DNA of 64,000 bases from NCBI GenBank assembly GCA_021839245.1, contig JAKCBQ010000005.1, positions 4,043-68,042 on the forward strand. The letters are read 5' to 3'. This document shows positions 46,146 to 59,497 of this stretch, piece after piece. The notes below the pieces were generated by a model, which worked only from the letters and a program-made list of their open reading frames with translations, searched no databases and was not told the origin of the DNA. The translations under genes and the position numbers were made by a program. The first letter of the stretch is position 1. Each line of letters begins with the position of its first letter. The stretch is from Pseudomonadota bacterium (GTDB lineage: Bacteria; Pseudomonadota; Gammaproteobacteria; JAKAQQ01).

Positions 46146-47324
46146 TTAGAGGGTCGTGCCCTTTTCTGGGGACGGGAAGCGGATGGTTCGGGCGACCAGA
46201 ACGTTGAAGCGTGTTCCGCGCCGGATGATGATGGTGGGAGGGAGATCCTGGTCCCGCGCGAGTAGATCCTGAACCGTCTGATCGAGGGCTTCGCCCGCCG
46301 CCGTGCCTGCGATCAACGGGGTCCCCGACGGGAGGACGAGCTCCTGGCTGGTGTTGTCGGGTAACGCGGCCCCGAGTCCGGCAATGAGAAAAGAGGATCC
46401 GAACATCCGCCAAAAATGCGTGCGGACGAGGTCGTGAAGCCCGGCGCCCCCTCGTTGCCCCGCGGCTTCCATGCCCGGAAGGCGGATGCTGGCTCCGTTG
46501 GGGGTCTCGATCCGGTCGAAACTCACAAAGATGCGCCTCTCGCCCGGTCGTACGCTCTCCCCGTAACGGCCGACGAGGAGCGATCCCGCGGGAATGAGGA
46601 GCGTGCGCTCATGGATGCTCCCGTAAACCGCGCGGCTCGTCCGCGCCTCGACGAGGCCCGAGAGATCACTCACAAGCCGGGTCAGGAGGACGGCGGGGAT
46701 CACGGTCCCGGGGAGGAGCACGTGCCCCCGTGGCGCGGGATGCAGCTGGACCCTACGGCCACGGAGGCTCCGGTCGGCCCCGTGCGTCGTCGTCAGGCGG
46801 TCGACGGGCTCATCGGTGTTGAGCGGCCAGAGTCCGACCGGTTGCGGCAGCGGCAAGGACGGGGCTCCGACGACTCCGTTTTCGTCGTGCGCCCGGAGTC
46901 TGTTTTCTGACATGAACAGTGCGCCGTGAGTGTCGTTCGGAGTTCCGACGTCGAAGGCGAGGATGGGGGCCGCGCGCGCTTGGGCCCGTACGCCGGGGAA
47001 CGCTTTTGGAGACCGAACGCGATGTCGCGCCGGAGGGGGTTTCGCGGTCGTGGGTGGAGGTTGGGCGTGGCGCGGAGATGACGTCACGGGCGGGGAGCGG
47101 GGCGAAGACGTACGTTTGAGACGACGAAGAAATCTCTTCACCGAGGGGCGGGCTAGCCCGCGGAGGGGGGTTCCAACCCGTGTTGGAAGTCTTCTGCCCG
47201 TTGCGCTGTCGAGCCTCCCCTCGACGATCGTGGCCACGATGAGAGCCAGGAGAATGATAGCCAGCGCCCACCAGTGAAGGCGTCGGCTGAGTGGCGGTGG
47301 CGGGGCGAGATCCGGGTCGTTCAT
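46146..47324 (-). CDS. trbI: Conjugal transfer protein TrbI (VirB10 family)
   Basis: N-terminal TM, Pro-rich linker, C-terminal VirB10 domain (...IIIRRGTRFNVLVA). Confidence 0.85.
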   Translation of the reverse strand: MNDPDLAPPPPLSRRLHWWALAIILLALIVATIVEGRLDSATGRRLPTRVGTPLRGLARPSVKRFLRRLKRTSSPRSPPVTSSPRHAQPPPTTAKPPPARHRVRSPKAFPGVRAQARAAPILAFDVGTPNDTHGALFMSENRLRAHDENGVVGAPSLPLPQPVGLWPLNTDEPVDRLTTTHGADRSLRGRRVQLHPAPRGHVLLPGTVIPAVLLTRLVSDLSGLVEARTSRAVYGSIHERTLLIPAGSLLVGRYGESVRPGERRIFVSFDRIETPNGASIRLPGMEAAGQRGGAGLHDLVRTHFWRMFGSSFLIAGLGAALPDNTSQELVLPSGTPLIAGTAAGEALDQTVQDLLARDQDLPPTIIIRRGTRFNVLVARTIRFPSPEKGTTL

Positions 47325-48121
47325 CGCAAGCGAAGGACTTCCACCCGGCGGTGACCGAGGACAAGGACGGCTTGTCGGAAGAGTCCGGGATAGATGATCG
47401 AGCGGCCCACCACGGCGTAGTCGACGAGTTGCGCATGTCCGTGCGTGAGAAGGAAAAGAGCGGGCAGACTGGCCGCATGTCGGCGGAACATGAAGTAGGT
47501 TCTGTGCCCGATGGCGTAGACCTCCTGCGGGCGCCAGCGGGCGTGCCCGCGGATCAGAAAACGCGTGTCGATCCGGGGGGACGGAGGCGGAGGGGCCGGG
47601 TGAACGGGCGGTGATACGGGACGCTCGAAAACCATGAGGGGGCGCGGGGCGCGCCAGCGCACTTCTTGGTCCCAGGGCGACCCGCGGGAGACGCTTGCCA
47701 ATAAAAGTTCGTAGCGGTGTTTGTTGGTGATCAGGGTGGCCGATGTCTCAAGACCTGCGCGCACGGGCTTGACGAAAATGTCCTCTGCGTCGCGTGCGAC
47801 TATCCAGCGGACGGTGTCTCCGAGGGCAAAGACGAGTGGGTGTTCTCCGGGTCGTAGGGCGATGTCGGTGATCGCACCAGCGAGGGTGCGAACCGTGTAG
47901 ATGCGCCCGTGACGGTAGCGGTAAACGAGCACCCGCGCGCCGGCCGCTGGGGTGCCGGGGAGCGCTCGCCCGTGGGCGCGCGCGGGGGCTTCACCCAACA
48001 CGAGGAAAAGAGTAAACAAGCCCGTAAGGACAAGTTCAGAGTGTTTTCTCAAGCGTAAAGTTCGTGACATACAAACCGAGAGGATCGAGCAGCAGCGTGC
48101 GCCGATGACGCGGGCGGGCAA
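47321..48121 (-). CDS. trbG: Conjugal transfer protein TrbG (VirB9 family)
   Basis: VirB9/CagX fold with RIYTVRTLAGAITDIAL. Start uncertain. The 5' region overlaps the trbF 3' end. Confidence 0.8.
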   Translation of the reverse strand: MPARVIGARCCSILSVCMSRTLRLRKHSELVLTGLFTLFLVLGEAPARAHGRALPGTPAAGARVLVYRYRHGRIYTVRTLAGAITDIALRPGEHPLVFALGDTVRWIVARDAEDIFVKPVRAGLETSATLITNKHRYELLLASVSRGSPWDQEVRWRAPRPLMVFERPVSPPVHPAPPPPSPRIDTRFLIRGHARWRPQEVYAIGHRTYFMFRRHAASLPALFLLTHGHAQLVDYAVVGRSIIYPGLFRQAVLVLGHRRVEVLRLR

Positions 48122-48800
48122 GTGTGTAGTTGAGTGTCAGGAGCCAGCTCGCACGCCGTTCACGATTCCCGCCGTCCGGGCGGGTGACCGTCTTGAGTCG
48201 GAGGATCGCCACCCCCTGAGGTAGGAGGCTGACCGCCCGCAGGTGGACCGTGCGGACGAGTGCAGGATCCTGCCGTAGGCGCGTGAGAGGTGCGCTGCGT
48301 GTGGCCCAGGCCTGGAATTCCCCGACCGCCGCCCCCCGCACGAGACGGTAATCGCGCGTGAGATTCCGGGTTGTGAGGCCGGCATCGAGTGTCAGAAGGC
48401 GGATCGCCCAACGAGCAAGAAAGTAACGCAGGACGACCGCGTGGACGCGGCGTGCCGGCCGGGTCAGAACGAGGCTTGTCCGCCCGGACGGGTGGGCGAC
48501 GACGACGTAGGGGCGATAGCGCACGGTCGGAGGGCGTGCCAGCGCCGCCCAGGAGAGAAGAACGAGCGCAAGCGCTTGGACGAGCGTGAGGATAAAGAGC
48601 CTGTTGCGGGTAACAAGAACCGCACCGTAGCGTTCGAAGTGGCGGGCGCTTACTTCTGGGCCGAGACGGGCGTGCGGAGGAACCGCCGGTGGAGGAAAAG
48701 ATGCGCTCACAGGCGGAAGAGCGCGACAAACAGGAGGCGGATGAGGTAGCTCACGGTGGCCGTGCCCCCCAGGAGGACGACAAAGGGTTGGTCTTTCCAT
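48036..48800 (-). CDS. trbF: Conjugal transfer protein TrbF (VirB8 family)
   Basis: ERYGAVLVTRNRLFILTLV aligns with the TrbF N-terminus (NERYGSYIARERNWRLMAF). ATG at 48800 chosen. The ORF tool allows 48839. Confidence 0.8.
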   Translation of the reverse strand: MERPTLCRPPGGHGHRELPHPPPVCRALPPVSASFPPPAVPPHARLGPEVSARHFERYGAVLVTRNRLFILTLVQALALVLLSWAALARPPTVRYRPYVVVAHPSGRTSLVLTRPARRVHAVVLRYFLARWAIRLLTLDAGLTTRNLTRDYRLVRGAAVGEFQAWATRSAPLTRLRQDPALVRTVHLRAVSLLPQGVAILRLKTVTRPDGGNRERRASWLLTLNYTLARPRHRRTLLLDPLGLYVTNFTLEKTL

Positions 48801-48884
48801 CGGCGGTGAAGTTCGGCACCGAAAAGGTGCGCCAGGCACGGCAGAGAGACGTCCCGACGCGGGAGAGAGGGAGCGCGCACCGTG

Positions 48885-49961
48885 CTAGCCTGCAATCCAA
48901 TCGGTGGCCCGACCTGCAAGGCGCATCCCTCCGCTCCAGATGCCTTGACCGCTCGAACCCCTCCCGGACAAAAGATGCTGCACGATCGACGGAATCTGAC
49001 GCAGCAAAAGCAGAATGAATCCCACAGCGAGAAGCACCGCGCAGTCGTAGAGAAGGAGCGAGATGGGCGCGACGAGCGCTTTGACAGGACCGTGACCGTG
49101 GAGGAGGGTCTTCTGCCCGATGACTACGGTTTCGTGGAGTGCGAAAGTCAGCACAGGCACGATGAGCGCGACGATGACTGCGGCAACGATTTTGTAGAAC
49201 CCGACGCCGAGGAGAAAGCGGAACCAACCGTGTGCCAATTCGGAGAGGTAAGGAACAAGGAGACAGATGATCAAAAGCGGACCGAGCGCGACGGCGACGG
49301 CAGTGAGCGCCTCCGCCATGAAATAGATCCCGAGAAACCCGAGCCAGGCGGCGAGGAGCGCGACGAGCGCCAGACCCAAAAGGATCGACCCGAGGAGCAC
49401 AATCCACAGCACCGCCGCCGTTCGACGAAGGTCCCATCCCAAAGCGGGAAGATGGCGAAGGGGGAGTGCACGCCAGAGCTCTGCGACGGCGTGGAGAAAC
49501 GCTCGGGAGGCAACCCTGACGGGAGCGAGGGCAAGCCCCGATCCGTGCGTGTGCTCTACGAGAAGCGTGTTGGCCACGGTGTCGAAACCACCGTCGAAGG
49601 CGTGAAGGAGCGGCCCATAATCGTGAAGCACCCAGGCAACGAGCCCCCAAAGAAGGATAAAACGAACCGCCGAGGCCACCGTGCTCTCGAGACTCGCGGG
49701 ATGCAGCGTGACGGCAAGCCCGCCGAGTGCGAGCATGAGCGATGTCAGGAGATAAAAAAGCGGGTGGGGCCCGGCCAGGACCAGCCGTCTCATCTTGCGA
49801 GCGAGACGGAATCCGCTTGCGCCTGTGGCGTGGATGAGGTGAGCCAGAAGCTGAGGGAGAGAAACGGCGAGACGGAGCCCGTCCCCAGAAGACGCGGAGA
49901 CCGCAGCGGTGATGTGTGGGTGTAGGTCGACACTAAGGACGCTGGCGAGAAGGGCGCTCAT
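48885..49961 (-). CDS. trbL: Conjugal transfer protein TrbL (VirB6 family)
   Basis: Polytopic membrane protein of about 358 aa in the canonical position between trbJ and trbF. Confidence 0.8.
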   Translation of the reverse strand: MSALLASVLSVDLHPHITAAVSASSGDGLRLAVSLPQLLAHLIHATGASGFRLARKMRRLVLAGPHPLFYLLTSLMLALGGLAVTLHPASLESTVASAVRFILLWGLVAWVLHDYGPLLHAFDGGFDTVANTLLVEHTHGSGLALAPVRVASRAFLHAVAELWRALPLRHLPALGWDLRRTAAVLWIVLLGSILLGLALVALLAAWLGFLGIYFMAEALTAVAVALGPLLIICLLVPYLSELAHGWFRFLLGVGFYKIVAAVIVALIVPVLTFALHETVVIGQKTLLHGHGPVKALVAPISLLLYDCAVLLAVGFILLLLRQIPSIVQHLLSGRGSSGQGIWSGGMRLAGRATDWIAG

Positions 49962-50776
49962 TGATGAGCTTCGAATGGGGTTGTTGCGAGCCTGAGGCGT
50001 TGGGCAAGGGTGCTGTTTGCGGTGGTGGCCAGGAGTCGGCTGAGAAGTGCTCGGTCGCGGCGCTTGAGACGGCGGTAGCGGGAGAGAATTGCCCGGTCGA
50101 GAGCCGCGCGGTGGCTGCGTCCCCGAGCGCGTCGCTCGGCATGATGGGCGAGAAGCGCAAGTTCGGCGGCGTCCGATGCCGTGAGTGTCCCCATGTGGTC
50201 GTTGAGGAGTTCAAGTTCCTGCTTGAGAGACCCCGAGACATCGAGACGGGCCTCGAGCAAGCGCAGGCGGTGGTAATCGGAGGCCACCGAGGCCAAGAGG
50301 CGCCGATCGAGGAGGACGCTGTGCTCGGCAGCGTGCTCTCGTTTTCGCAATCCGCGATCGAGGTTCTTTTCGTATCCGCTCCAGCTTATCCGTGCACTCG
50401 CGAGCCGGCGGTTAACGGCGAGCAGACGGTGGTAAGCGGCGTTGACCGATCCGCGTGTCCGGCGGAGAGCGGTGAGAAAGTGTTGGTAGGATCGGATTTG
50501 GTCATCGAGAGCACGCCCGCCGGCAAGATCGATGAGCGTGCGACCGGGATACGAGCGCCACTCCGCCAGTTGAGCCCGGAATTCCTCTTCGAGCGTGAGC
50601 ACCGTTTCCGCTTCGGCCTCAACCTGCTGAATTGAGTTGAGTGCGGTCGTTGTGTTGCGCATGAAGTTCATCGGGTCGAAGACGGTGCTTCCCGTGGCAA
50701 GAGCATGGGCGCAGGGCGCTTCGACGAGAAGCAGGAGCGTGAGGACGGACGACAGGACCGCCGGTTTAAGAGTCAT
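49958..50776 (-). CDS. trbJ: Conjugal transfer protein TrbJ (VirB5 family)
   Basis: Signal peptide plus coiled-coil periplasmic protein. Position between trbE and trbL. Confidence 0.78.
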   Translation of the reverse strand: MTLKPAVLSSVLTLLLLVEAPCAHALATGSTVFDPMNFMRNTTTALNSIQQVEAEAETVLTLEEEFRAQLAEWRSYPGRTLIDLAGGRALDDQIRSYQHFLTALRRTRGSVNAAYHRLLAVNRRLASARISWSGYEKNLDRGLRKREHAAEHSVLLDRRLLASVASDYHRLRLLEARLDVSGSLKQELELLNDHMGTLTASDAAELALLAHHAERRARGRSHRAALDRAILSRYRRLKRRDRALLSRLLATTANSTLAQRLRLATTPFEAHQ

Positions 50777-53162
50777 GGTTCATGCTCTCGAGGTACCGGG
50801 TCGCCCAGGCCTCTCCGCCCCGACGGGCCTCCTCGAAACGTCTGAGTGCACGGGAGTCGGAGCGGAGATGGGCGAGAAGCGCGGGAGGGAAGCGGACGTC
50901 CAGGACATGCCCTCCGCGCGGTGTGCGGACGAAATAGTGGCGGTGAGGGGTGGCCTGCGCGATCAGGTCGAGATCGCTCGTCCCGAGTCCGAGAAGTTCC
51001 CTGTACAGATGCTGCTGAGCATGAGCGTGGGGGTTGGGCAGAAGAATGCGGGTCGGAGCGTTCTCGAGGAGCACCGACGCGGCGGGGCTTCGGGCGATCT
51101 CGGACAGCGACTGGGTCGCCAGGATCAGGCAGGCGTTGCGCTTGGCGAGCGTGCGCAGCCAAGTCTCGAGGTGTGGAGCGAACTGGGGATCGGTGAGTGC
51201 CGCCCATGCTTCCTCGATGTAGATCAGAGTGGGTTGCCCGTCAAGATCGAGGCGGATCCGCTCAAAGAGGTAGTCGAGAAGAAAGCGAGCGGGCCCCGGC
51301 CGCCCAAGTAACGTGCCGAGATCGATGGCGGTAAAGGTCCCGAAAACGAGTCGATCCTCGACGTGATCGAAGAGTCCTCCCGAAGCTCCGCGCTCGAGCC
51401 AGGGGGTGAGTCGAGCGGCCAGTTCACGCGGCAAGAGTTGGGCCAGGGTGAGAAGACGACGCCGGTCCTCAGGAAGATCTGCCATGGCTTCAAGCGCCTC
51501 GGCGAGACACCGTTCGGCTTCGGGTTCTCGGGTTGGATCCTCGGCTCCAAGAAGTCCAAGGATCCAACGCAGGAGCCAGGCTCGACTTCCTTCACGCGCG
51601 AGCAGCTGGAGCGGATTGAGTGTCGGGGTCCCCGTCTCGTTCTCAAGATCGAGGTAGCTTCCCCCCTGAAGCACCGTGGGGATGAGGCACGAGTGATCAC
51701 GATCGAAAATATATGTGCGGCCACGGTACTTCTGCCACGAAGCGATGAGAAAATTCACGAAGACACTTTTCCCGCTGCGGCTTGGTCCGAGGACGAGCGT
51801 GTGGCCCAGGTCGTCGACATGGAGGTTGAAGGAGGTGAGCCCTCCGCGTGCGGTGCGGAATGTGGCGAGGGCGGGGATGGGCCGCCCAACCTGCCGGGTG
51901 AGGTAGGCATTTTGGGGCTGCCCGGCATCTTCTCCGGACGTCGGGGCGAGATCGGCGAGGTTGGACGTTCCGACGAGCGACCAACGAACCGGTTCCCACC
52001 ACTGTCCCGGAAGTGTTCCCGCCCAAGCGCCGAGCGCGTGGAGCCTTTCGCGAATGCAGAGCATTCCTGCCCGGTGCAGGGCGGCGACGGCCCCTTGGGC
52101 CGTCGCTTCGGCTTCGTCGGGGTCGCGTCCGTAGCAGACCACGGTGACGTTGACGTATCCGAAATGCTGGTGGGCAAGGCTGGCTTGGGCACGGACGGCC
52201 TCTTGGACAGAGGCTTCGTGCTGCGGACGGTCGCTGGCGCCGTGTTCCCGGGTCAGCGCCTCGCGGAGGTAGCTGCGCCAGCTTCGTGCCAAGAGCAGAT
52301 GATGACGTTGTACCTTGGAAATCCAAGCCTCGGCTTGCGCGTTGGGGATCCGGCGGAACGCCAGCGAGAGGCGCAGCGTCCCGCTCAGGGTGAGGAGCTC
52401 ATCGAGACTGCCGGGGCGTGTCACCGATTCTCCTCCCCGAGGCCATCCGCGCAGGGAGAGGACGACCCCGTACCGTTGCTCAAGAGGGCCGCTCCAAACC
52501 AGTGTGCCCCGGGCGATATCGAGAAACGAATCGGCCAAGGCGTCGTCGAGGTAGGCGCCTTCGGCGAGAGTGACTTGGGGGCACATCTCGATGCCAAGGC
52601 GATCGTGAAGGAACCCTGCGAGATCGGCTCCCGTGAGAGGGCGCCAGCGAAGCTCCGGACAAAGGTCGTTGAGTACGGCGATCTCGGCGTCGTGGCGGGC
52701 TATCTGCTCGAGCAGCGCCGATTCTTCGAAACGGGCCAGCGACCTGTGACTGAGTGGGGTGAGGAATCGCCGTCTCAGACGCGGCGGTCGACCGTGCGTT
52801 GGCTCCTCCCCCCCACCCGGGGCGCCGAACGGGGCGTCGGGCGGGGTGATCAGGCTGAGATGGTGCACGTTTTGATAAGGGGTGGGGCAGCGCAATGATT
52901 CTGCGTGCAGTTCCTCAAGACGGGCGCTCACCGAACCGCCACGGTCGTTCGTGTGGGGGTTCGGAATTGTGGCAGGGTGGCGATCGACGCTCCACCAGAG
53001 CGAGGTGTTGTCGCCGAGAAGTTCGAGCGCCCGGTCCAGACGCTCTGTGTGGCGGTCGCGTGCACCTTCTTCCCCCGTCCAGAAATCCATCCCCTCGAAG
53101 GCGAGCACGCTGAGGAGAGAGCCGTCTTTGAGGAGGATGTGCCGTGTATCGATCAAGAGCAT
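50766..53162 (-). CDS. trbE: Conjugal transfer ATPase TrbE (VirB4 family)
   Basis: Walker A GPSRSGKS. About 800 aa. Start set at MLLIDTRHILLKDGSLLSVLAF by alignment with TrbE N-termini. The ORF extends to 53384. Confidence 0.9.
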   Translation of the reverse strand: MLLIDTRHILLKDGSLLSVLAFEGMDFWTGEEGARDRHTERLDRALELLGDNTSLWWSVDRHPATIPNPHTNDRGGSVSARLEELHAESLRCPTPYQNVHHLSLITPPDAPFGAPGGGEEPTHGRPPRLRRRFLTPLSHRSLARFEESALLEQIARHDAEIAVLNDLCPELRWRPLTGADLAGFLHDRLGIEMCPQVTLAEGAYLDDALADSFLDIARGTLVWSGPLEQRYGVVLSLRGWPRGGESVTRPGSLDELLTLSGTLRLSLAFRRIPNAQAEAWISKVQRHHLLLARSWRSYLREALTREHGASDRPQHEASVQEAVRAQASLAHQHFGYVNVTVVCYGRDPDEAEATAQGAVAALHRAGMLCIRERLHALGAWAGTLPGQWWEPVRWSLVGTSNLADLAPTSGEDAGQPQNAYLTRQVGRPIPALATFRTARGGLTSFNLHVDDLGHTLVLGPSRSGKSVFVNFLIASWQKYRGRTYIFDRDHSCLIPTVLQGGSYLDLENETGTPTLNPLQLLAREGSRAWLLRWILGLLGAEDPTREPEAERCLAEALEAMADLPEDRRRLLTLAQLLPRELAARLTPWLERGASGGLFDHVEDRLVFGTFTAIDLGTLLGRPGPARFLLDYLFERIRLDLDGQPTLIYIEEAWAALTDPQFAPHLETWLRTLAKRNACLILATQSLSEIARSPAASVLLENAPTRILLPNPHAHAQQHLYRELLGLGTSDLDLIAQATPHRHYFVRTPRGGHVLDVRFPPALLAHLRSDSRALRRFEEARRGGEAWATRYLESMNHDS

Positions 53163-53540: not shown

Positions 53541-53843
53541 TCAAAATCGGAAGAGTGCCAGCCAGCTGCTGACTGCGAAGACCAGGCTGAGCCCAAAAGC
53601 GACACGAATGAAGAGAGCAAAAAAGCCACGGACTTCCCCGAACGCGATCAGGAAGCCGAGGACAATCAGCAAAATTGTGGCGATGAGACGAGCCGTGGGT
53701 CCCTGGAGATCGGCCACGATGGTTTCGAGCACGCCGTCCCAGGGGAGCCCACCTCCCGCAAAGCTTCCTTGGGCGTAGGCGCGAGAGAAAACCAGGGGGA
53801 GCATCCCGGATGTGAACAGAACGAACGAACGGCGAGCGGTCAT
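53541..53843 (-). CDS. trbC: Conjugal transfer pilin TrbC (VirB2 family)
   Basis: Signal sequence plus two hydrophobic helices. ATGA overlap with the trbB stop. Confidence 0.72.
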   Translation of the reverse strand: MTARRSFVLFTSGMLPLVFSRAYAQGSFAGGGLPWDGVLETIVADLQGPTARLIATILLIVLGFLIAFGEVRGFFALFIRVAFGLSLVFAVSSWLALFRF

Positions 53844-54913
53844 AGAGGAGTCTCCTTCGAGGTGGGATCGGGGTGTCGTGTCGGTCGTGCCTCGTGCAAA
53901 GGCCACAGGGGAACCAGACGGTACGCACCGTCGTCGGTCAGCGCGACACGCACGAGCTCGCTCACTCGTCTCTCGCCACCTAGACGTTGAAGATGGACGA
54001 CGTGACCGAATGCGGCGGCGACAGCGCGGCGGATGGCCACGTGGGGCCAGCCGGTTCCGGCGGTCAGCACGAGGGTCTCCAGGCGGTGAAGAGCCTCCCC
54101 GGCGCTGTTGGCGTGGACTGTGAGCATTGTTCCACGGTGCCCCGTGTTTGCCGCTTGAACGAGGTCAAACGCTTCGGCGCCCCGGGTCTCGCCGAGGATG
54201 AGCCGGTCGGGGCGCAGGCGAAGCGCTTGGCGAACGAGAAGCCGGAGATCCACGCCGAAAGTGTCGTGCGCCAGGAGACGAATCCAGTTGCCACGGTCGA
54301 GTTCGAGCTCGGCCGTGTCTTCCAGGAGCACGAGACGCTCATGTTCCGGTACGGCGGCGACGAGTGCGTTGAGCAGGCTCGTTTTCCCGCTCGAGGTTCC
54401 TCCCGAGATCAGAAGGTTCTCTCCACAAGAGACGAGGCCGGTAAGAACCTCTTCGAGAGAACGCCCGGGAGTTGTGACGGGCGGGCGCCTGGGACTCGCG
54501 ACGGGTCCGCCGAAGCAAAAATCCTCGAGCCGGGTCTTGCGGCGCGGGCGGCGACGAAACGCGAGGGCATCGCCACGCGCGGCAACGGGGTGGAGGACCC
54601 CGGAGACTCGCCAATCATCGTGGTGGACGTCGAGCAAAGCTTCAGGCCCGTCTTCGCGAACATCGCGCCCGTTGAGGCGCGCCAGGAGGATGAGGCTGCT
54701 GCGTACCCCTTGAGCGGTAAGCGTTCCATTCCAGCGGGTCATTCTTCCAGAGCGCTCGATATAAATCTCCTCGGGGGTGTTGACGACCACCTCGTCGACG
54801 GTCTCGTCACGCAAGGCCGGGAGAATCGGGCGGAGGAGGACCTTGAGGGTCTCGCGCGCGTTTTCTTCGGGCGAGGCCGGGTGGGTTGCGAAGGGTGTGC
54901 GGAAGCGAGCCAT
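53840..54913 (-). CDS. trbB: Conjugal transfer ATPase TrbB (VirB11 family)
   Basis: Walker A ISGGTSSGKTSLLNAL. VirB11/GspE-type hexameric ATPase. Confidence 0.9.
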   Translation of the reverse strand: MARFRTPFATHPASPEENARETLKVLLRPILPALRDETVDEVVVNTPEEIYIERSGRMTRWNGTLTAQGVRSSLILLARLNGRDVREDGPEALLDVHHDDWRVSGVLHPVAARGDALAFRRRPRRKTRLEDFCFGGPVASPRRPPVTTPGRSLEEVLTGLVSCGENLLISGGTSSGKTSLLNALVAAVPEHERLVLLEDTAELELDRGNWIRLLAHDTFGVDLRLLVRQALRLRPDRLILGETRGAEAFDLVQAANTGHRGTMLTVHANSAGEALHRLETLVLTAGTGWPHVAIRRAVAAAFGHVVHLQRLGGERRVSELVRVALTDDGAYRLVPLWPLHEARPTRHPDPTSKETPL

Positions 54914-54978
54914 GGCGACTATTGCACACGCTTGGAGACGTTCCTGCGACAGGGAATCACGGCCGTTTCGGACGTGGT

Positions 54979-55380
54979 TCAGAGGCTGCCGCTACGGACG
55001 CGGTGCAGCAGGCTGGCAATGAGGGCAACGAAGAGGTATTCCCCATGTTCCCCGTACGACAGCGGCGTAAGGAGAGCGATTGCGGCGGTTGTCGCCGCGA
55101 GGGCTGCGGCTTGAGCACCGTTCGGGAAACGGCGGCAAGGAGGTGCGATAAACGCATCGGCAAGCACGGTGGCAAAAAGTGACAAAACGAGGAGTAGAGA
55201 GTGGCGCAGGCGCTCCAGGCGGTGGTGAACCATGGTGGTGACCGGCCACGACAAGTGAGCGTGCGTCTTCTCGGGCCTGTGAAGCATCCCGAGAAGAACA
55301 TCGGCGCCGCAGAGCAACGCCGCCACAAGGAGAGCCGCGGCCCAGAGGCGTGCTGCGGAGAGTGTGGCGTAACGCTTCAC
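54979..55380 (-). CDS. Hypothetical small membrane protein between traG and trbB
   Basis: 133-aa ORF with about 3 predicted TM helices. 4-bp overlap with the traG stop. No ribbon-helix-helix signature, although a CopG-like regulator often sits here. Confidence 0.35.
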   Translation of the reverse strand: MKRYATLSAARLWAAALLVAALLCGADVLLGMLHRPEKTHAHLSWPVTTMVHHRLERLRHSLLLVLSLFATVLADAFIAPPCRRFPNGAQAAALAATTAAIALLTPLSYGEHGEYLFVALIASLLHRVRSGSL

Positions 55381-57230
55381 GTGGTTGGGATGCTCAAGGT
55401 ACGCCCCTTGATGAGCTGTCCTCCCGCGAGGCTGGCGATGAAGTGGCCTGTTGGCAGCGTTCCCAAGAGATCGGGAGGGATCCGCTCGCGTCTCTCAGCG
55501 CCGACGGAGCGCGAGTGAGATCCGCTGTGGTGTCCGTGCCCCTGACTGTCACGCCCGCGCGAGGTCGTACGGGCCACTCGGGCCACCGGGATGTCCTCAC
55601 GGCCGAATTGTTCGCTGCAGAAACGCTGGGTGAAACCGTCACGCACGCGAAACACCACGAGCTGCGTGGTGTTACCCACGATGACCCGTGCTGGGGCTTC
55701 TCCTCCCAAGCGCGCGGCGAGGTCGGAAAGGGTTTGCAGGCAGAGGGTGAGATGGAATCCACTGCCGCGCCCTTTGTTGAGAAGCTGGATGAACGCGGTT
55801 CCGGCGGTTTCACCGGCCTCATCGACATAGACTTGAACGGGATCCGCATCTCGTCCGTGTCCGTAACGGCGGGCCGCAAGCGCCGCGAGTTCGCCGAGGA
55901 AGAGAGAGCCGACGGCTTGCCCTACGAACGGATCCGCAAGCGTGTCGAGCCCGATGTACGCTACAGTACCGGGCCGGCATAGGAGATCGATGTTCCAGAT
56001 CGGGCGTGGATCCGCGGCGCCCTCTGCAGGCGAGAGAAGTCCTCGAAGTTCTCCGCTTGTGAGACTTCCAAGAAGCGGAAGAAGAGTGGCCACCATCTTC
56101 CCGTAGTGCCCAAGGTCGTGTTCAGCGACGGCAAGAATCTTGTCGATGGTGGGCTCGGCGCTGCGATCGCGGCGGTAGGCGGCGGCCAGGGAAGCAAACC
56201 ATGCTTCCTGAGTCTCTTGAGACGAACGAGCTCGGCCGCGATTTACTTGAAGCAGAGGGAACGGCCCGCGTTGCTGCACCCGTTTCTCGAGGAGGGATGT
56301 CGCGAGGGTGCGACCGCGCTCGAGAACATGACGGTGGAGGGTGGCCAGGGTGATCGGTTCGCCCTGGAGGCGTAGTCCTTCGCCGATGGCCTCGAGCACC
56401 ATCCATGAGAAAGCCACAAACGGTGAGGATCCCTCGCTGGCCGGGAGAAGACGGACGATCCGGCTGGCAAGCTCCGAGGTCCGGTTCGCCTCGGACAACG
56501 CGTCGAAGCGGCACGAGTGGGCGGGATGGCCAAGATGGAAATAGACATAGGGGCGCCCGTGACGTTGGGCTCCCTCGCGCATCCTTCGCTCAAGCTCTCG
56601 GTCGCCTTTGGGGTCGAGGACCAGCACGCACTGCCCACAAGCAATGTCCTGCTCGATGAGGGAACTGATCCAAAACGTTTTCCCGCTGCCTGGAGCTCCT
56701 AAGACGAGGGTGTTGCCGCTCCGTTGTGCATATGTCAGGCTGAGAAGCCGCTCTCGCCCCAGGCCGTGGAGCCTGGGATCGCCGCGGTCGTCGGTGGCGC
56801 GAGGGGGATTCACAGGAGGCCCCCGAAGACGTTCGTAAAGGCGCGCGCTCGTTCCCTCTGTCCAGGCAAATCCCCGCCCGACAACGTAGGTGCCGGGGCG
56901 TGCACGCCAGAATTCGGGGTCTCCTCGGTCTCGGTAGGGAACGACACGACGAAGGACCAGAGCCAAGGCGACGAGAAGCGCAACGCTCCCTTCGATCCGG
57001 TCCATGTCGGTTGTTTTGGGGTCTTGTCCCCAAGCCGCAAGAAGACACACAAGAGCGAGTGTGCACCAGAGGAGAAGGCGTAGACCAAGACGTGTGGAAG
57101 GGGAGTGCGTAGTCAACGTCGGACGCTTCTGGGAACCACGTCCGATCTTGTGGTGATCGGCCCCCGCTGTCGCGCTGAGACGCGGCCGTTCCGGCCCGTT
57201 CCGGCTTCCCCCGATTTTCTGACCCGCCAA
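55377..57230 (-). CDS. traG: Type IV secretion coupling protein (TraG/TraD/VirD4 family)
   Basis: N-terminal TM helices, Walker A GAPGSGKT, Walker B (VQVYVDEAG). Confidence 0.85.
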   Translation of the reverse strand: MAGQKIGGSRNGPERPRLSATAGADHHKIGRGSQKRPTLTTHSPSTRLGLRLLLWCTLALVCLLAAWGQDPKTTDMDRIEGSVALLVALALVLRRVVPYRDRGDPEFWRARPGTYVVGRGFAWTEGTSARLYERLRGPPVNPPRATDDRGDPRLHGLGRERLLSLTYAQRSGNTLVLGAPGSGKTFWISSLIEQDIACGQCVLVLDPKGDRELERRMREGAQRHGRPYVYFHLGHPAHSCRFDALSEANRTSELASRIVRLLPASEGSSPFVAFSWMVLEAIGEGLRLQGEPITLATLHRHVLERGRTLATSLLEKRVQQRGPFPLLQVNRGRARSSQETQEAWFASLAAAYRRDRSAEPTIDKILAVAEHDLGHYGKMVATLLPLLGSLTSGELRGLLSPAEGAADPRPIWNIDLLCRPGTVAYIGLDTLADPFVGQAVGSLFLGELAALAARRYGHGRDADPVQVYVDEAGETAGTAFIQLLNKGRGSGFHLTLCLQTLSDLAARLGGEAPARVIVGNTTQLVVFRVRDGFTQRFCSEQFGREDIPVARVARTTSRGRDSQGHGHHSGSHSRSVGAERRERIPPDLLGTLPTGHFIASLAGGQLIKGRTLSIPTT

Positions 57231-57242
57231 GGCGGGAAGGGG

Positions 57243-58169
57243 TCATGGGAGCGTGAGGGGCTTGTGCGGGCCGGCAGCAACCATGAGAAGCGGCACGTCG
57301 AGTCGCTCGATCAGCCGTCCCGGCAGATGTTCGTGTCCCCATGCCGCGAGCCCGTGACGCCCGTGACTCGCGAGAACGACAAGGTCAATGCCAAGCCGAT
57401 GGGTCAGCGACGCCAGAACGCCCGCCGGATTGCCCGTCTCGATAACGGGACGCACACGCACGGAATCTGTGTTTGCCTCCCGGGCGCAACGCTCCAGATA
57501 AGCCGTGCGTAGCCGTTCTCCACGACGGCGCAGAAAGCGATCCGCGTGCGGGGCGAAACGCGCGCGCAGGGCACCCAAGCCGTCAGTGTCTTGATGCCCC
57601 GGAAGGACATGGACGAGATCGACGCTTCCCTCGTCCTCGCTCGCGAGCCACAAGGCACGTTGAAGGGCAGTTTCGTGACTCCTGTCGCCATCCAGTGGGA
57701 CGAGAAAATGGTGCGGTCCTGGTGCCGGGGGGAGAGAGCGAGGTGTGAGCTGAAGCACGTCGCATCGGGCCCGTGCCAGAACTCTTTGGGCGACACTACC
57801 ACGGAGCCAGCGGCGTGGGTCGACGCGGCCGTGTGTGGCGAGGAGCACCACATCGCATTGCTGATCGTCAGCCGTGAGGGAGAGGGCGTTCGCAACGTCT
57901 TCGGGAGACGATCGCCGCAGCATGCAGGCGGTAGTGTGGCCGATGCGGCGTAGCCTTTCTGCGCAGTCCTCGAGATAACGTGCCGCCGTTTGGGCGTCGT
58001 GCAAATGAGGGGCTCCATGGACCCGCTCGGGCCCGCCCTCCTCCACGATGTGGACGAGCGTGATGGTGCAACGACCGGGCGCGGCCCAGCAAGCGACGAG
58101 ATCGAGAAGATGCTCGGCCCAGGGCGTACCATCGAGGGCAAGAAGAAGGCGACGGTAGGGCAGTGTCAT
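57243..58169 (-). CDS. Universal stress protein (tandem UspA domains)
   Basis: Two USP domains (308 aa). Ends 12 bp upstream of the traG start. Overlaps the mntH stop. Confidence 0.72.
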   Translation of the reverse strand: MTLPYRRLLLALDGTPWAEHLLDLVACWAAPGRCTITLVHIVEEGGPERVHGAPHLHDAQTAARYLEDCAERLRRIGHTTACMLRRSSPEDVANALSLTADDQQCDVVLLATHGRVDPRRWLRGSVAQRVLARARCDVLQLTPRSLPPAPGPHHFLVPLDGDRSHETALQRALWLASEDEGSVDLVHVLPGHQDTDGLGALRARFAPHADRFLRRRGERLRTAYLERCAREANTDSVRVRPVIETGNPAGVLASLTHRLGIDLVVLASHGRHGLAAWGHEHLPGRLIERLDVPLLMVAAGPHKPLTLP

Positions 58170-59497
58170 ATCTTGATGCCCAGAGTCTGGAGGATCAGTA
58201 CGACGTTGAGGCCTGTGATGGCCCAGGCGAGACCGTAGGCCACGACGACGGTCGTTCGACGGTTACGTAACGAGCCCATGAGTTTCCGGTCGGATGTGAA
58301 GCGCGCCAGAGGGAGAAGAGCCAAGGGAAGACCGAAACTGATGATCACCTGGGTCAAGACGAGGACCGCGGTCGGCGAAAACCCCGAGGCGATCACAAGA
58401 AACGCCGGAATCATGGTGAGGCCCCTCCGAAGCCAAAGCGGAAACCGACGACCGAGAAAGCCTTGCATGATGACCTGACCGGCCACCGTGCCGACGGTGG
58501 ATGAAGCCACGCCCGAGGCCAGAAGGGCAAGAGCGTAGAGCAGGGCCGCCCCTGTGCCGAGAAGTGGGACGAGTGTTCGGTAAGCCTGGTTCAATCCGGC
58601 CACGTTGACGATCCCGTCGTGATGAAAGGTGGCGGCAGCCATGATCAGCATGGCGAGATTGGTCAGTGTGGCCACGGCCATGGCGATGCCGATATCAAGG
58701 GTTTCAAAGCGAAGTATGCGCCGTTTGGTTCGCGCGTCGCGGACCGGCAGACGGTCCTGTGTCAGGGCCGAATGGAGAAAGATGACGTGGGGCATCACGG
58801 TGGCCCCGACGATGCCCACCGCGAGATAGAGGGCTCCGTGGGGCAGCGAGGGAAGGAAAAGGCCTCGGGCCACGTGGGACCAATGTGGGCCGCCGAGGGG
58901 GATCTCGACGAGATACGCGAGTGTGACAAGGGAGACAACCGCGGCCATGACGGCTTCCAAAGGACGGAAGCCGTGCCGTTCGAGGGTCAGAACGAGGACA
59001 ACCGTGATTGCGGTGAGCGCTCCCCCCACCGGCAGGCTGACCGCGAGCAGTATGTGGAAGGCAATACTTGCACCGACGAACTCGGCCACGTCCGTTGCCG
59101 CCGCAACGACCTCCATAGAAACCCAGAGGATGGCGATCGTTTTCGGCCCGTAATGTTCGCGGCAAAGCTCGGCGAGATTGCGTCCGGAGGCGAGCCCAAG
59201 CTTGGCGGCAAGATACTGCATGACGGCCGCCGTGAGGCTGGCGCCGGCAACCACCCACAAAAGTGCGTATCCGAACGCCGATCCCCCCTGAAGATTGGTC
59301 GCGAAGTTTCCCGGGTCGATGTAGGCGATGGCGGCGATAAACGCCGGCCCGAGAAACGGGAGGAAGCGCGCAGGGCCACGGCGGGGACTTCGGCCCTCAA
59401 GGACTTCCAGAGCGTCGTCCTTCGTCCTTCGGCTCGAACTGCGTAAGCGTTCCGCGAGATCCACTCGAGACTCCCGCACACGTGACGGCACGATCAT
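58166..59497 (-). CDS. mntH: Nramp-family divalent metal (Mn2+/Fe2+) transporter MntH
   Basis: GPAFIAAIAYIDPGNFATN (DPGN motif), 11-12 TM. Confidence 0.85.
   Translation of the reverse strand: MIVPSRVRESRVDLAERLRSSSRRTKDDALEVLEGRSPRRGPARFLPFLGPAFIAAIAYIDPGNFATNLQGGSAFGYALLWVVAGASLTAAVMQYLAAKLGLASGRNLAELCREHYGPKTIAILWVSMEVVAAATDVAEFVGASIAFHILLAVSLPVGGALTAITVVLVLTLERHGFRPLEAVMAAVVSLVTLAYLVEIPLGGPHWSHVARGLFLPSLPHGALYLAVGIVGATVMPHVIFLHSALTQDRLPVRDARTKRRILRFETLDIGIAMAVATLTNLAMLIMAAATFHHDGIVNVAGLNQAYRTLVPLLGTGAALLYALALLASGVASSTVGTVAGQVIMQGFLGRRFPLWLRRGLTMIPAFLVIASGFSPTAVLVLTQVIISFGLPLALLPLARFTSDRKLMGSLRNRRTTVVVAYGLAWAITGLNVVLILQTLGIKI

What the first reader, a model, noticed from the sequence alone, without database searches (positions are those of the whole stretch)
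46146..59497. Complete Trb-type T4SS with coupling protein but no relaxase or integrase, transcriptionally fused to a mntH-usp cassette
All MPF-T components (TrbB/C/D/E/J/L/F/G/I) plus a VirD4/TraG coupling ATPase are present and look intact. The 7 kb on either side contain only chromosomal housekeeping genes (pntAB, folE, ntrYX). No MOB relaxase, oriT-binding protein, integrase or replication gene is visible. The genes that normally precede traG (relaxase, traF, traR) are replaced by a Mn2+ transporter and a tandem universal stress protein, ending 12 bp from the traG start on the same strand. A palindromic candidate metalloregulator site lies upstream of mntH. This points to either a domesticated, possibly metal- or stress-regulated T4SS for protein or DNA export or uptake, or an ICE whose DNA-processing module lies more than 7 kb away.
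Basis: partly seen in the sequence, partly recalled or inferred. Interest (0 to 1): 0.7.

Follow-up and report, generated by a model that had tools for sequence, protein, structure and literature searches.

The report
Domesticated chromosomal type IV secretion system
A complete DNA-transfer-type secretion machine has lost the enzyme that would load DNA, yet has been kept intact and inherited vertically near the replication origin of an uncultured gammaproteobacterial lineage, so it is a host-recruited ("MOBless") secretion system, a kind already known, and not a mobile element.

Summary
The gene content is real. Window 46146-57116 (- strand) holds a coupling ATPase, a 133-aa membrane protein, TrbB/C/D/E/J/L, a 70-aa ORF and TrbF/G/I, all intact, downstream of mntH and a tandem-Usp gene.

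- The coupling protein is SXT/TOL-type TraD, not TraG/VirD4.
- Its start is most likely TTG 57116, 126 nt after usp. The 12-bp start is not conserved.
- A tRNA-Ser lies 38 bp past trbI.

No relaxase, integrase or replication gene lies in the 64 kb, which is the dnaA/gyrB origin region, or in 10 kb beyond it.

The arrangement folE-mntH-usp-traD-trb-tRNA-Ser recurs in at least five diverged lineages. Synonymous divergence there (dS about 1-1.5) matches the flanking housekeeping genes, dN/dS is 0.07-0.3, and codon usage is ameliorated. A neighbouring efflux pair decayed over the same period.

The closest relatives are MOBH/MPF_T plasmids (pTK9001, an Azonexus plasmid) ordered mobH-traD-x-DUF4400-virB11...virB10. 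So the relaxase and DUF4400/DtrJ were lost and the locus is not an ICE.

The function is inferred: TraD-dependent export, probably of proteins. Co-transcription with mntH-usp is possible but untested; Nramp-Usp is an independent cassette elsewhere. MOBless T4SSs are a known category, so interest is moderate.

The parts
58166..59497 (-). mntH (Nramp Mn2+/Fe2+ transporter), 443 aa. Conserved neighbour, probably not part of the machine.
   Evidence: PF01566, 2.5e-114. The ATG context GTTATGATCG is invariant in 5 lineages. dN/dS 0.10-0.13.
57243..58169 (-). Tandem universal stress protein, 308 aa. Overlaps the mntH stop by 4 bp.
   Evidence: PF00582, two stretches, 4e-32. Orthologues occur only in this clade (95-56% identity, then 37% or less). 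Distant homologues also follow Nramp genes in unrelated genomes.
57117..57242 (-). usp-traD spacer, poorly conserved. No terminator or sigma-70 consensus. Candidate site of read-through or of a new promoter.
   Evidence: (fold z = +0.85).
55377..57116 (-). Type IV coupling protein, TraD (SXT/TOL-type), about 579 aa, with two N-terminal TM helices. Start most likely TTG 57116; gene callers use ATG 57005; the longest ORF starts at TTG 57230.
   Evidence: NCBIfam TIGR03743, 426.5 bits (cut-off 366). PF12696/PF10412. Conserved LLLWCxLALVCLL and GALLVALxxVLRRL lie upstream of the called ATG. Walker A GAPGSGKT and Walker B VYVDEAGE. dN/dS 0.16-0.20.
54979..55380 (-). orf133: clade-specific small membrane protein (3-4 TM helices) in the position that hyp + DUF4400/DtrJ occupy in related plasmids.
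   Evidence: No Pfam or NCBIfam hit. Conserved in 5 lineages at 39-80% identity. dN/dS 0.43-0.64. hhalign against the DtrJ-like and 'x' proteins gives probability 0.1.
53840..54913 (-). trbB (VirB11-type ATPase), 357 aa.
   Evidence: PF00437, 1e-36. TIGR02782, 191.9 bits, below the 304.55 cut-off. dN/dS 0.10-0.16.
53541..53843 (-). trbC (VirB2-type pilin), 100 aa, with a signal peptide.
   Evidence: PF04956 precomputed. 57-76% identity to plasmid/MGE pilins. dN/dS 0.07-0.10.
53216..53536 (-). trbD (VirB3), 106 aa.
   Evidence: PF05101, 4e-7. NF010395, 1.4e-8.
50766..53162 (-). trbE (VirB4 ATPase), 798 aa.
   Evidence: NF010447, 3.8e-105, 352.6 bits, below the 1020 cut-off. PDB TrwK/VirB4, 3.6e-30. 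Walker motifs intact. dN/dS 0.13-0.15.
49958..50776 (-). trbJ (VirB5 position), 272 aa, signal peptide plus helical region.
   Evidence: NF010448, 5.9e-5. 44% identity to the L026 counterpart. dN/dS 0.20-0.22.
48885..49961 (-). trbL (VirB6), 358 aa, polytopic membrane protein.
   Evidence: PF04610, 2.2e-9. dN/dS 0.07-0.16. Some assemblies call an ORF on the opposite strand here.
48707..48919 (-). orf70: small ORF with a C-terminal TM helix between trbL and trbF. Small ORFs occupy this position in related systems too.
   Evidence: Called in relatives. 43-80% identity, dN/dS 0.35-0.71. No family hit.
48036..48710 (-). trbF (VirB8), 224 aa.
   Evidence: PF04335, 2.2e-25. dN/dS 0.08-0.12.
47321..48070 (-). 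trbG (VirB9), 249 aa (or 232 aa from position 48019).
   Evidence: PF03524, 5.5e-42. dN/dS 0.20-0.23.
46146..47324 (-). trbI (VirB10), 392 aa.
   Evidence: PF03743, 1.3e-44. dN/dS 0.22-0.36.
46019..46107 (-). tRNA-Ser(CGA). Marks the conserved end of the locus and has its own extended -10-like box (TGGTAAAAT) in the 38-bp spacer.
   Evidence: ARAGORN. Rfam, 49.1 bits. Alignment A6.
59537..59552 (.). 7-2-7 palindrome TTCTATT-AA-AATAGAA in the folE/mntH divergent promoter region.
   Evidence: Only exact copy in the window. Present in window and L015 only; distant lineages keep just an AT-rich core.
60251..60507 (+). Flank: deletion scar of an emrA-MFS efflux pair that is intact in two related lineages. 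Serves as an internal control for gene decay at this locus.
   Evidence: tblastn: emrA codons 7-70 at 62.5% identity, E 3.5e-20, with a stop; the MFS C-terminus is also present.

Best explanation
The locus is a chromosomally fixed, vertically inherited type IV secretion system. It descends from the transfer module of a MOBH/MPF_T conjugative plasmid.

Shown:
- The ancestral order mobH-traD-(hyp)-DUF4400/DtrJ-virB11-virB2-virB3-virB4-virB5-virB6-small-virB8-virB9-virB10 is retained, minus the relaxase and the DUF4400/DtrJ DNA-transfer component.
- The remaining eleven genes are intact, translationally coupled and ameliorated in composition.
- They are under purifying selection in every sampled lineage of a deep-branching uncultured gammaproteobacterial clade.
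- The locus always lies between usp and tRNA-Ser, about 40 kb from dnaA.

Inferred:
- The machine no longer transfers itself. [quoted passage not shown]
- The membrane-anchored TraD hexamer still selects cytoplasmic substrates and hands them to the TrbB/TrbE-energised channel and TrbC pilus. The substrates are most probably proteins delivered to neighbouring cells or the milieu.
- Losing mobH removed the ancestral upstream promoter context. Expression must now come either from read-through of the mntH-usp operon or from a new promoter in the 126-nt spacer.
For: Gene content and integrity.

Conserved position:
- The same locus is 100% identical in 21 contigs from several samples.
- It is present with the same neighbours in L015 (93% nt), L012/L016 (about 75%), L013 and L014 (about 72%). 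L021 has usp at 56% aa identity, and the TraD N-terminus follows usp at the contig end.

Selection and composition:
- T4SS dS is 0.9-1.9, against 0.9-1.7 for mntH/ntrX/ntrY in the same pairs. dN/dS is 0.07-0.30 for all Trb genes and traD.
- GC3 and synonymous codon usage match housekeeping genes (r = 0.95).
- A neighbouring emrA-MFS pair decayed to a scar over the same period.

Absence of mobility genes:
- No relaxase, integrase or replication gene in the 64 kb, nor in 10 kb beyond the right edge.
- No MobH or DUF4400 remnant.

Relatives:
- The closest relatives carry mobH abutting traD, then DUF4400, then the same MPF order. pTK9001 is typed conjugative/MOBH/MPF_T.

Isolation of the clade:
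- The gap (TraD 70-100% then 40%; TrbE 74% then 42%) mirrors GyrB (81-85% then 52%). It reflects the host lineage, not recent transfer.

Literature:
- MOBless chromosomal T4SSs without integrases are common and are interpreted as exaptations. Protein-secreting T4SSs need no relaxosome but usually need a T4CP (PMC3548315).
- DtrJ and TraI/TraD are DNA-transfer components of IncC plasmids (PMC13635750).
Against: - No substrate, effector or immunity gene is visible in the locus, and the function is entirely inferred.
- Whole genomes of these MAGs could not be searched, so a relaxase elsewhere is not excluded.
- Retention of a TraD-type T4CP, which normally partners MOBH relaxases, fits DNA transfer as well as protein export.
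- No sister lineage lacking the T4SS was found, so the insertion event and the ancestral state of the site are not reconstructed.
- In one lineage (L014) traD has no canonical start codon upstream of its TM helices.
- All sequences are metagenome-assembled.
Confidence: 0.6

Rival explanations
1. The locus is a conjugation or mobilisation machine that works with a relaxase encoded elsewhere. In this reading the chromosomal MPF + TraD serves relaxase/oriT modules on other replicons or islands, or exports chromosomal DNA (Hfr-like transfer, or DNA release as in the Neisseria GGI).
For: - TraD of the SXT/TOL subfamily is retained under purifying selection.
- In all close relatives this T4CP is paired with a MobH relaxase.
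- A MOBH relaxase is needed for GGI DNA export (PMC3548315).
- Genomes outside the roughly 85 kb examined could not be searched.
Against: - Both dedicated DNA-transfer partners, MobH and DUF4400/DtrJ, are gone without a trace in every lineage.
- Host-level purifying selection over dS greater than 1 is harder to explain for a helper of foreign elements.
- No oriT-like structured repeat is evident in the locus.
Confidence: 0.25
2. The locus is an ordinary ICE, or an integrated plasmid, whose integrase/relaxase module lies outside the region inspected.
For: A tRNA gene abuts the cluster, and tRNA genes are classic integration sites. The closest MPF relatives sit on mobile elements.
Against: - The cluster lies on the 5' side of the tRNA. 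The variable DNA is on the 3' side.
- There are no flanking direct repeats. The only tRNA-like 16/18 match lies inside an emrA pseudogene remnant.
- Flanks are origin-region housekeeping genes for 46 kb to the left and about 20 kb to the right.
- The position is identical and dS equals that of the flanks in at least five lineages.
- Codon usage is ameliorated.
Confidence: 0.03
3. The locus is a decaying, non-functional remnant of an integrated plasmid or ICE.
For: The relaxase, DUF4400 and type IVb pilus genes found in related plasmids are missing. traD uses weak or non-canonical start codons in several lineages.
Against: - All eleven genes are full-length in every lineage, with dN/dS 0.07-0.3 at saturating dS, and the ATPase motifs are intact.
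- A neighbouring gene pair did decay over the same interval. Neutral DNA is therefore not preserved at this locus.
Confidence: 0.05
4. The T4SS is co-transcribed from the mntH promoter and is therefore induced by Mn limitation or stress. This concerns regulation and is compatible with the best explanation.
For: - Same strand, with adjacency conserved in six lineages.
- No terminator-like structure in the spacer.
- Loss of mobH removed the ancestral upstream context.
Against: - The spacer is 126 nt, not 12, and ranges from 77 to 240 nt in relatives. It is poorly conserved, which leaves room for a separate promoter.
- The palindrome upstream of mntH is conserved only in the nearest lineage and is not repeated near the T4SS.
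- No Mn riboswitch is present.
- Nramp-Usp is an independent cassette elsewhere, so adjacency may simply be inherited.
Confidence: 0.3
5. The locus is a ComB-like DNA-uptake (competence) T4SS.
For: It is a MOBless chromosomal T4SS, as ComB is (PMC3548315). TrbI gives a weak hit to ComB10.
Against: A coupling protein and a VirB11-type ATPase are both present and conserved. From my own knowledge of ComB, not tested here, ComB systems lack a T4CP. The ComB10 score of 79 bits is far below its 300-bit cut-off.
Confidence: 0.04

Closest known systems
MOBH/MPF_T conjugative plasmids, e.g. Thioalkalivibrio sp. K90mix pTK9001 (NC_013930.1), the Azonexus hydrophilus NCP973 plasmid (NZ_CP151407.1), and metagenomic plasmid-like contigs L017-L020
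   Same: Collinear module traD-...-virB11-trbC-virB3-virB4-virB5-virB6-small ORF-virB8-virB9-virB10. TraD is of the SXT/TOL subfamily. Identities: TrbE 32-37%, TrbB 39-46%, TrbC up to 65%, TraD 32-40%.
   Different: The plasmids carry a MobH relaxase gene abutting traD, a DUF4400/DtrJ-like gene, replication/partition genes and (pTK9001, Azonexus) type IVb pilus genes. The window has none of these and carries orf133 instead.
MOBless (relaxase-less) chromosomal T4SSs interpreted as exaptations (Guglielmini et al. 2013, PMC3548315). From my own knowledge, examples include Bartonella VirB/VirD4 and the Xanthomonas bacteria-killing X-T4SS.
   Same: Chromosomal, with no neighbouring relaxase or integrase, a complete MPF_T-type set with the T4CP retained, and vertically inherited within a clade.
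   Different: Derived from a different MPF_T sub-lineage, one linked to MOBH/TraD. No effectors, immunity proteins or recognisable secretion-signal domains are known, and the organism is uncultured.
IncP/Ti-type Trb systems and Tn4371-family ICEs
   Same: Gene order trbB-C-D-E-J-L-F-G-I preceded by a coupling-protein gene.
   Different: All NCBIfam P-type equivalog scores are far below their cut-offs (for example TrbE 352.6 against 1020, TrbL 31 against 129). The T4CP is TraD-type, not TraG (no PF02534 hit). There is no TrbH/TrbK, and no traF/traR/relaxase.
Neisseria gonorrhoeae gonococcal genetic island T4SS (DNA secretion)
   Same: A chromosomal T4SS that uses a TraD-type coupling protein from the MOBH world and serves the host rather than self-transfer (PMC3548315).
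   Different: According to PMC3548315, the GGI keeps its MOBH relaxase, which DNA export needs. From my own knowledge, it is F-like (MPF_F) and is a variably present island. Here the relaxase is absent and the locus is fixed.
Closest MPF relative L026 (ENA ERZ27237319 k141_64539)
   Same: trbB-C-D-E-J-L-small-F-G-I at 38-76% aa identity, the nearest found. TrbL is of similar size, and a small ORF follows trbL.
   Different: It sits among ParE/RHH toxin-antitoxin genes, IS3 fragments, an HNH gene and a PLD-DEAD helicase, which is a mobile context. No traD lies within 8 kb upstream.

Membership tests
Self-transmissible conjugative element (plasmid/ICE; relaxase + T4CP + VirB4 + MPF genes) | A relaxase (MOB) gene associated with the T4SS | tested here: not met
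   No relaxase family hit in any long ORF of the 64-kb window. tblastn with four MobH/TraI_2 relaxases gives only E of about 1 noise in the window and in L012-L015 and L021. The 10 kb beyond the right edge is housekeeping. The rest of the genome could not be searched.
Self-transmissible conjugative element (plasmid/ICE; relaxase + T4CP + VirB4 + MPF genes) | T4CP, VirB4 and MPF genes co-localised | tested here: met
   traD, trbE and nine further MPF genes are contiguous on one strand at 46146-57116.
Integrative and conjugative element | Integrase and flanking att direct repeats | tested here: not met
   No integrase hit. No repeat pair brackets the cluster. The 16/18 tRNA-like match lies in an emrA remnant.
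Integrative and conjugative element | Mobile distribution: variable presence, or divergence discordant with the flanks | tested here: not met
   Same site in at least five lineages. dS and aa identity track the flanking ntrXY and mntH genes. Codon usage r = 0.95 with housekeeping genes.
MPF_T class of T4SS | VirB4 plus VirB2/3/6/8/9/10/11 homologues in one locus | tested here: met
   Pfam TrbC, VirB3, VirB4_TrbE_N, TrbL, VirB8, CagX, TrbI and T2SSE. The closest annotated plasmid is typed MPF_T by MOB-suite. CONJscan itself was not run.
IncP/Ti 'P-type' Trb system (NCBIfam equivalogs TrbB_P, TrbE, TrbJ_Ti, TrbL_P, TrbG_Ti) | Scores above the curated equivalog cut-offs | tested here: not met
   TrbB 191.9 against 304.55; TrbE 352.6 against 1020; TrbJ 16.3 against 100.55; TrbL 31.1 against 128.85; TrbG 88.8 against 180.85.
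VirD4/TraG coupling proteins (Pfam T4SS-DNA_transf, PF02534) | Match to PF02534 | tested here: not met
   Only PF12696 and PF10412 hit.
SXT/TOL-type TraD coupling proteins (NCBIfam TIGR03743) | Score above the subfamily cut-off | tested here: met
   426.5 bits against a cut-off of 366, covering profile positions 142-632 of 636. The N-terminal TM region differs.
MOBless / exapted T4SS (PMC3548315) | Complete chromosomal T4SS with no neighbouring relaxase or integrase, and not degrading | tested here: met
MOBless / exapted T4SS (PMC3548315) | An identified non-conjugative substrate or phenotype (effector delivery, killing, DNA release or uptake) | not testable with these tools
   No effector-like gene in the locus. 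The organism is uncultured.
ComB-type DNA-uptake T4SS | Absence of a coupling protein | tested here: not met
   traD is present and conserved.
Mn-responsive regulon (mntH-linked) | A conserved metalloregulator operator or Mn riboswitch controlling the unit | tested here: inconclusive
   The palindrome at 59537-59552 is present only in the window and L015; distant lineages keep an AT-rich core. No second copy in the window. No Rfam riboswitch.

The most novel reading that the evidence does not exclude
A whole deep-branching gammaproteobacterial lineage has kept, for a time long enough to saturate synonymous sites, an origin-proximal T4SS that retains a MOBH-world TraD coupling protein but no relaxase. 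The T4SS is expressed as the distal part of a Mn/stress-responsive mntH-usp operon. It exports either chromosomal DNA by a relaxase-independent or non-canonical route, or a novel class of TraD-recognised effectors. This would be the first exaptation documented from the MOBH/TraD branch of conjugation systems.
Probability: 0.12. Interest if true: 0.75.

Novelty: new member of a known kind. Interest (0 to 1): 0.45.

Why it matters
MOBless T4SSs in free-living bacteria are numerous but almost unstudied. Guglielmini et al. (PMC3548315) explicitly predicted that novel exaptations hide among them.

This locus is an unusually clean example:
- The ancestral plasmid architecture can be identified.
- The two lost genes are exactly the DNA-processing ones.
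- Vertical inheritance under selection is demonstrable from sequence alone, with a decayed neighbouring gene pair as an internal control.

It would give a defined test case for how a TraD-type coupling protein is re-targeted once its relaxase is gone. The practical limit is that the hosts are uncultured and no substrate is visible, so for now it adds one more member to a known category rather than a new principle.

Tried and rejected
- Relaxase or integrase hidden in the window. Pfam/NCBIfam on about 45 long ORFs, plus tblastn with MobH, DUF4400 and 'x' proteins from four related elements, found nothing.
- att repeats. The only tRNA-related repeat (46063-46080 against 60385-60402, 16/18) lies in an emrA pseudogene scar and does not extend. 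Rejected as chance.
- orf133 as a shrunken DtrJ/DUF4400. hhalign probability is 0.1 against both candidate counterparts. The single-sequence AlphaFold model has pLDDT 62 and pTM 0.38, so no fold search was run.
- Terminator, promoter or structured RNA in the usp-traD spacer. Consensus scans are at chance level, the fold z-score is +0.85, and only a small GC hairpin without a U-tract is conserved.
- Mn riboswitch or other Rfam element. Only the tRNA was found.
- A shared operator. There is no second copy of the mntH palindrome.
Not conserved.
- Source papers for the MAG accessions. None found.
- A sister lineage with an empty site. None is detectable: usp orthologues and close GyrB relatives all belong to T4SS-bearing lineages.
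- PDB sequence match for TraD. None at E of 1e-3 or better.

Full report
**1. What is in the sequence**

All genes of the finding lie on the minus strand. HMM searches identify the following:
- TrbI/VirB10 (46146-47324)
- TrbG/VirB9 (47321-48070)
- TrbF/VirB8 (48036-48710)
- TrbL/VirB6 (48885-49961)
- TrbE/VirB4 (50766-53162)
- TrbD/VirB3 (53216-53536)
- TrbC/VirB2 (53541-53843)
- TrbB/VirB11 (53840-54913)
- a coupling protein ending at 55377
- a tandem Usp (57243-58169)
- an Nramp MntH (58166-59497)

TrbJ (49958-50776) has no Pfam hit. It is supported by position, a signal peptide, weak NCBIfam hits, and 26-44% identity to the VirB5-position protein of related systems.

Two further conserved small ORFs belong to the cluster:
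- orf133 (54979-55380) is a 3-4-helix membrane protein.
- orf70 (48707-48919) has a C-terminal TM helix.

None of the genes has an internal stop. The Walker A and B motifs of TraD, TrbB and TrbE are intact. Genes overlap or are separated by at most 65 nt, except for the usp-traD spacer.

**2.

(a) The coupling protein is not TraG/VirD4-type.
- It has no PF02534 hit.
- It passes the NCBIfam SXT_TraD subfamily cut-off at 426.5 against 366 bits.
- Its named relatives are all 'conjugative transfer system coupling protein TraD' at 32-40% identity.

(b) The '12 bp' junction is an artefact of the longest ORF.
- The TTG at 57230 is ATC in the 93%-identical relative.
- Protein-level conservation starts just upstream of two conserved transmembrane helices (LLLWCxLALVCLL and GALLVALxxVLRRL). 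These helices lie upstream of the ATG (57005) that gene callers chose.
- The homologous candidate start is TTG 57116 in the window, CTG in L012, GTG in L013 and ATT in L014. L021 has an ATG further upstream.
- The usp-traD spacer is therefore about 126 nt here and 77-240 nt elsewhere, and it is poorly conserved.

(c) A tRNA-Ser(CGA) at 46019-46107 lies 38 bp beyond the trbI stop.

(d) The Trb proteins are very divergent. Every NCBIfam P-type equivalog score is far below its cut-off.

**3. The neighbourhood**

The window is the chromosomal replication-origin region. In order it holds:
- gyrB, recF, dnaN and dnaA (1442-7810), with a GC dip and the cumulative GC-skew minimum at 5-6 kb
- yidC, mnmE and mnmG
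- a prpBCD cluster
- rsmG, parA and parB
- the atp operon
- glmU, glmS, fadE, suhB, queD and pntAB

On the other side come folE and ntrX/ntrY. Beyond the window edge lie DUF4390, rsmB, fmt, def, a LysM protein, smg and topA.

No relaxase, integrase or plasmid replication gene was found. tblastn with four MobH relaxases and with DUF4400/DtrJ-like proteins from related elements finds no remnant in the window or in any related chromosomal locus.

**4. Comparative genomics: the decisive evidence**

The window is 100% identical to contigs of GCA_027436675.1 and GCA_021819365.1. The identical TraD occurs on 21 contigs from several samples, always in the same context.

The same arrangement, (ntrYX)-folE-mntH-usp-traD-orf133-trbBCDEJL-orf70-trbFGI-tRNA-Ser, is found in these diverged lineages:

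| Locus | Source | Similarity to window | Reference |
|---|---|---|---|
| L015 | MAG TL1-5.bin26; its proteins are named 'Gammaproteobacteria bacterium' in NCBI | 93% nt | |
| L012/L016 | MAG YF2.bin84 | about 75% nt | |
| L013 | JGI 3300050357 | about 72% nt; contig ends inside trbE | |
| L014 | GCA_041825655.1 | about 72% nt | |
| L021 | Logan SRR7903764 | Usp 56% aa; the TraD N-terminus follows usp at the contig end | |

Nei-Gojobori estimates against the window:
- For the distant lineages, dS is 0.9-1.9 for T4SS genes and 0.9-1.7 for mntH, ntrX and ntrY.
- dN/dS is 0.07-0.30 for traD and all Trb genes.
- dN/dS is 0.35-0.71 for orf133 and orf70.
- For comparison, dN/dS is 0.09-0.13 for ntrXY and mntH against the distant lineages (0.05-0.23 against L015).

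GC3 (0.66-0.75) and synonymous codon usage (r = 0.95) match housekeeping genes.

An emrA-MFS efflux pair is intact between ntrX and folE in L013 and L014. It is reduced to a 250-nt scar with a stop codon in the window (60251-60507) and to larger fragments in L015. Dispensable genes at this very locus therefore do decay on this timescale, while eleven T4SS genes have not.

Together these results show long-term vertical inheritance under purifying selection.

**5. Where it came from**

After its own clade (TraD 70-100%), the next TraD relatives are at 39-40% identity. They lie on plasmid-like contigs:
- They carry Rep3, or RPA plus ParAB.
- A TraI_2/MOBH relaxase gene directly abuts traD.
- A hypothetical gene and a DtrJ-like (DUF4400) gene follow.
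- Then comes virB11-trbC-virB3-virB4-virB5-virB6-small ORF-virB8-virB9.

Annotated plasmids show the same order. The Azonexus hydrophilus NZ_CP151407.1 plasmid has it. So does Thioalkalivibrio pTK9001, which PLSDB types as conjugative, MOBH, MPF_T. Both add type IVb pilus genes.

DtrJ is a DNA-transfer component of IncC plasmids. There TraI (MOBH12) and TraD form the relaxosome/T4CP pair (PMC13635750).

The nearest MPF relative (L026, TrbE 41%, TrbC 76%) is also in a mobile context, with a ParE/RHH toxin-antitoxin pair, IS3 fragments and a helicase.

The chromosomal locus is thus the Mpf + T4CP part of a MOBH/MPF_T transfer module, from which precisely the DNA-processing genes (mobH and DUF4400) have been removed.

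The large identity gap is not a sign of recent import. GyrB shows the same gap (81-85% within the clade, then 52% to any named bacterium), and so do TrbE (74% then 42% among 1.84 billion representatives) and Usp. The host is a deep-branching, poorly sampled gammaproteobacterial lineage.

**6. The mntH-usp link**

mntH and usp overlap by 4 bp and form a unit. Distant homologues of this tandem Usp (33-35% identity) also sit directly downstream of Nramp genes in unrelated genomes that lack any T4SS. Nramp-Usp is therefore an independent cassette.

Evidence bearing on co-transcription:
- Its adjacency to traD is conserved in all six lineages, but simple vertical inheritance would produce that.
- The spacer has no terminator-like hairpin with a U-tract and no sigma-70 consensus. 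Counts are at shuffle level, the fold z-score is +0.85, and only a small conserved GC hairpin is present.
- In the plasmid relatives traD is translationally coupled to mobH. Deleting mobH must have left traD dependent either on read-through from usp or on a new promoter in the spacer.

Evidence bearing on metal regulation:
- The palindrome TTCTATT-AA-AATAGAA (59537-59552) is real and is the only copy in the window.
- It is conserved only in L015. The three distant lineages keep just an AT-rich core.
- No Mn riboswitch is present.

**7. The tRNA end**

The trbI-tRNA spacer contains an invariant TGGTAAAAT, an extended -10-like box, 12-14 nt upstream of the mature 5' end. The tRNA therefore probably has its own promoter.

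Conservation stops exactly at the CCA end. The 3' flank is unrelated in every lineage: an IS630 transposase remnant in L015, a methyltransferase in L014, and 740 bp of non-coding DNA here.

The T4SS lies on the 5' side of the tRNA, not where tRNA-targeting integrases place islands. No direct repeats bracket it.

**8. Mechanism**

Shown: the locus is a complete minimal T4SS (VirB2-6 and VirB8-11 homologues) plus a membrane-anchored T4CP, all under selection.

Inferred: it is a host-recruited 'MOBless' T4SS. PMC3548315 documents the following:
- Such systems are frequent and mostly chromosomal.
- They lack integrases.
- They arose many times within MPF_T.
- Protein-secreting T4SSs need no relaxosome but usually need a T4CP.

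I therefore rank the possibilities as follows:
- Most likely: TraD-dependent export of protein substrates encoded elsewhere. This mechanism is the main inferred part of the best explanation, to which I give 0.6 overall.
- Main rival: use with a relaxase in trans, or DNA export (0.25).
- Remnant, ordinary ICE and ComB-like uptake are each at or below 0.05.

**9. Novelty and score**

This is a new member of a known category. Its specific ancestry, the MOBH/TraD-linked MPF_T branch, has no characterised exapted representative that I know of. The case for domestication is unusually clean.

Against that, no substrate or phenotype can be proposed from sequence, and the hosts are uncultured. Interest is 0.45.

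Noticed in passing
window 1442-8700: Chromosomal origin region: gyrB, recF, dnaN and dnaA on the - strand, then yidC/mnmE/mnmG on the + strand. GC drops to 0.48-0.54 and the cumulative GC-skew minimum is at 5-6 kb. The T4SS lies about 40 kb from dnaA and is transcribed head-on to replication.
   Followed up: partly
window 60251-60507 (+): Deletion scar of an emrA-MFS efflux gene pair that is intact in L013 and L014. The scar keeps emrA codons 7-70 (62.5% identity, with a stop) joined to the last 30 or so codons of the MFS gene. L015 keeps larger fragments.
   Followed up: yes
window 46108-46145 and alignment A6: An invariant TGGTAAAAT (extended -10-like box) lies 12-14 nt upstream of tRNA-Ser in four lineages. 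Sequence conservation ends exactly at the tRNA CCA end.
   Followed up: partly
window 45278-46018; L015 17145-17695; L014 20640-21254; L012 13678-14304: The 3' flank of tRNA-Ser is unrelated in every lineage. L015 holds the C-terminal remnant of an IS630-family transposase, L014 holds a methyltransferase, and the window has 740 bp without any family hit. This is a rearrangement hotspot on the side of the tRNA opposite the T4SS.
   Followed up: partly
window 57116; L012 about 2640; L013 about 9090; L014 about 9515; L021 about 9487: The traD start codon at the homologous position is TTG, CTG, GTG or ATT in different lineages, and ATG further upstream in L021. L014 has no canonical start upstream of the TM helices and Walker A, and callers truncate it to 417 aa. 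This may indicate deliberately weak initiation.
   Followed up: partly
L022 3637-5984; L023 3798-5954: Nramp followed directly by a tandem-Usp gene recurs in unrelated genomes without a T4SS. In L023 the Nramp gene is split into three ORFs.
   Followed up: partly
window 57165-57195 (- strand); columns 93-119 of A2: A small GC-rich hairpin (CGGnCCG-NNN-CGGnCG) in the usp-traD spacer is kept in all five lineages. It has no U-tract and its function is unknown.
   Followed up: no
L026 1-8000: The closest MPF relative sits next to ParE/RHH toxin-antitoxin genes, IS3 fragments, an HNH protein and a 1032-aa PLD-DEAD/DUF3427 helicase. No coupling protein lies within 8 kb upstream.
   Followed up: no
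L024 21190-24298; L025 19760-24316: The MOBH/MPF_T plasmids carry type IVb pilus genes (PilN, TcpQ, PilO2, PilP, DotD/TraH-like lipoprotein) right after virB10. These are absent from the chromosomal locus.
   Followed up: no
whole window: Unusual composition: GC1 (about 0.70-0.79) is equal to or higher than GC3 (about 0.63-0.77), and the proteins are Arg-rich. GyrB is only about 50% identical to any named bacterium, the best being Inmirania thermothiophila at 52%.
   Followed up: no
window 19273-20358 and 21013-22734 (+): Two long ORFs between prpD and rsmG have no Pfam hit. The second has only faint Omp85/BamA-like NCBIfam hits.
   Followed up: no
L001/L005 (GCA_027436635.1) against L002-L004: Public gene calls are inconsistent. 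TrbL is replaced by an opposite-strand ORF in some assemblies, TrbD is missed in others, and usp is replaced by three antisense ORFs in L002.
   Followed up: no
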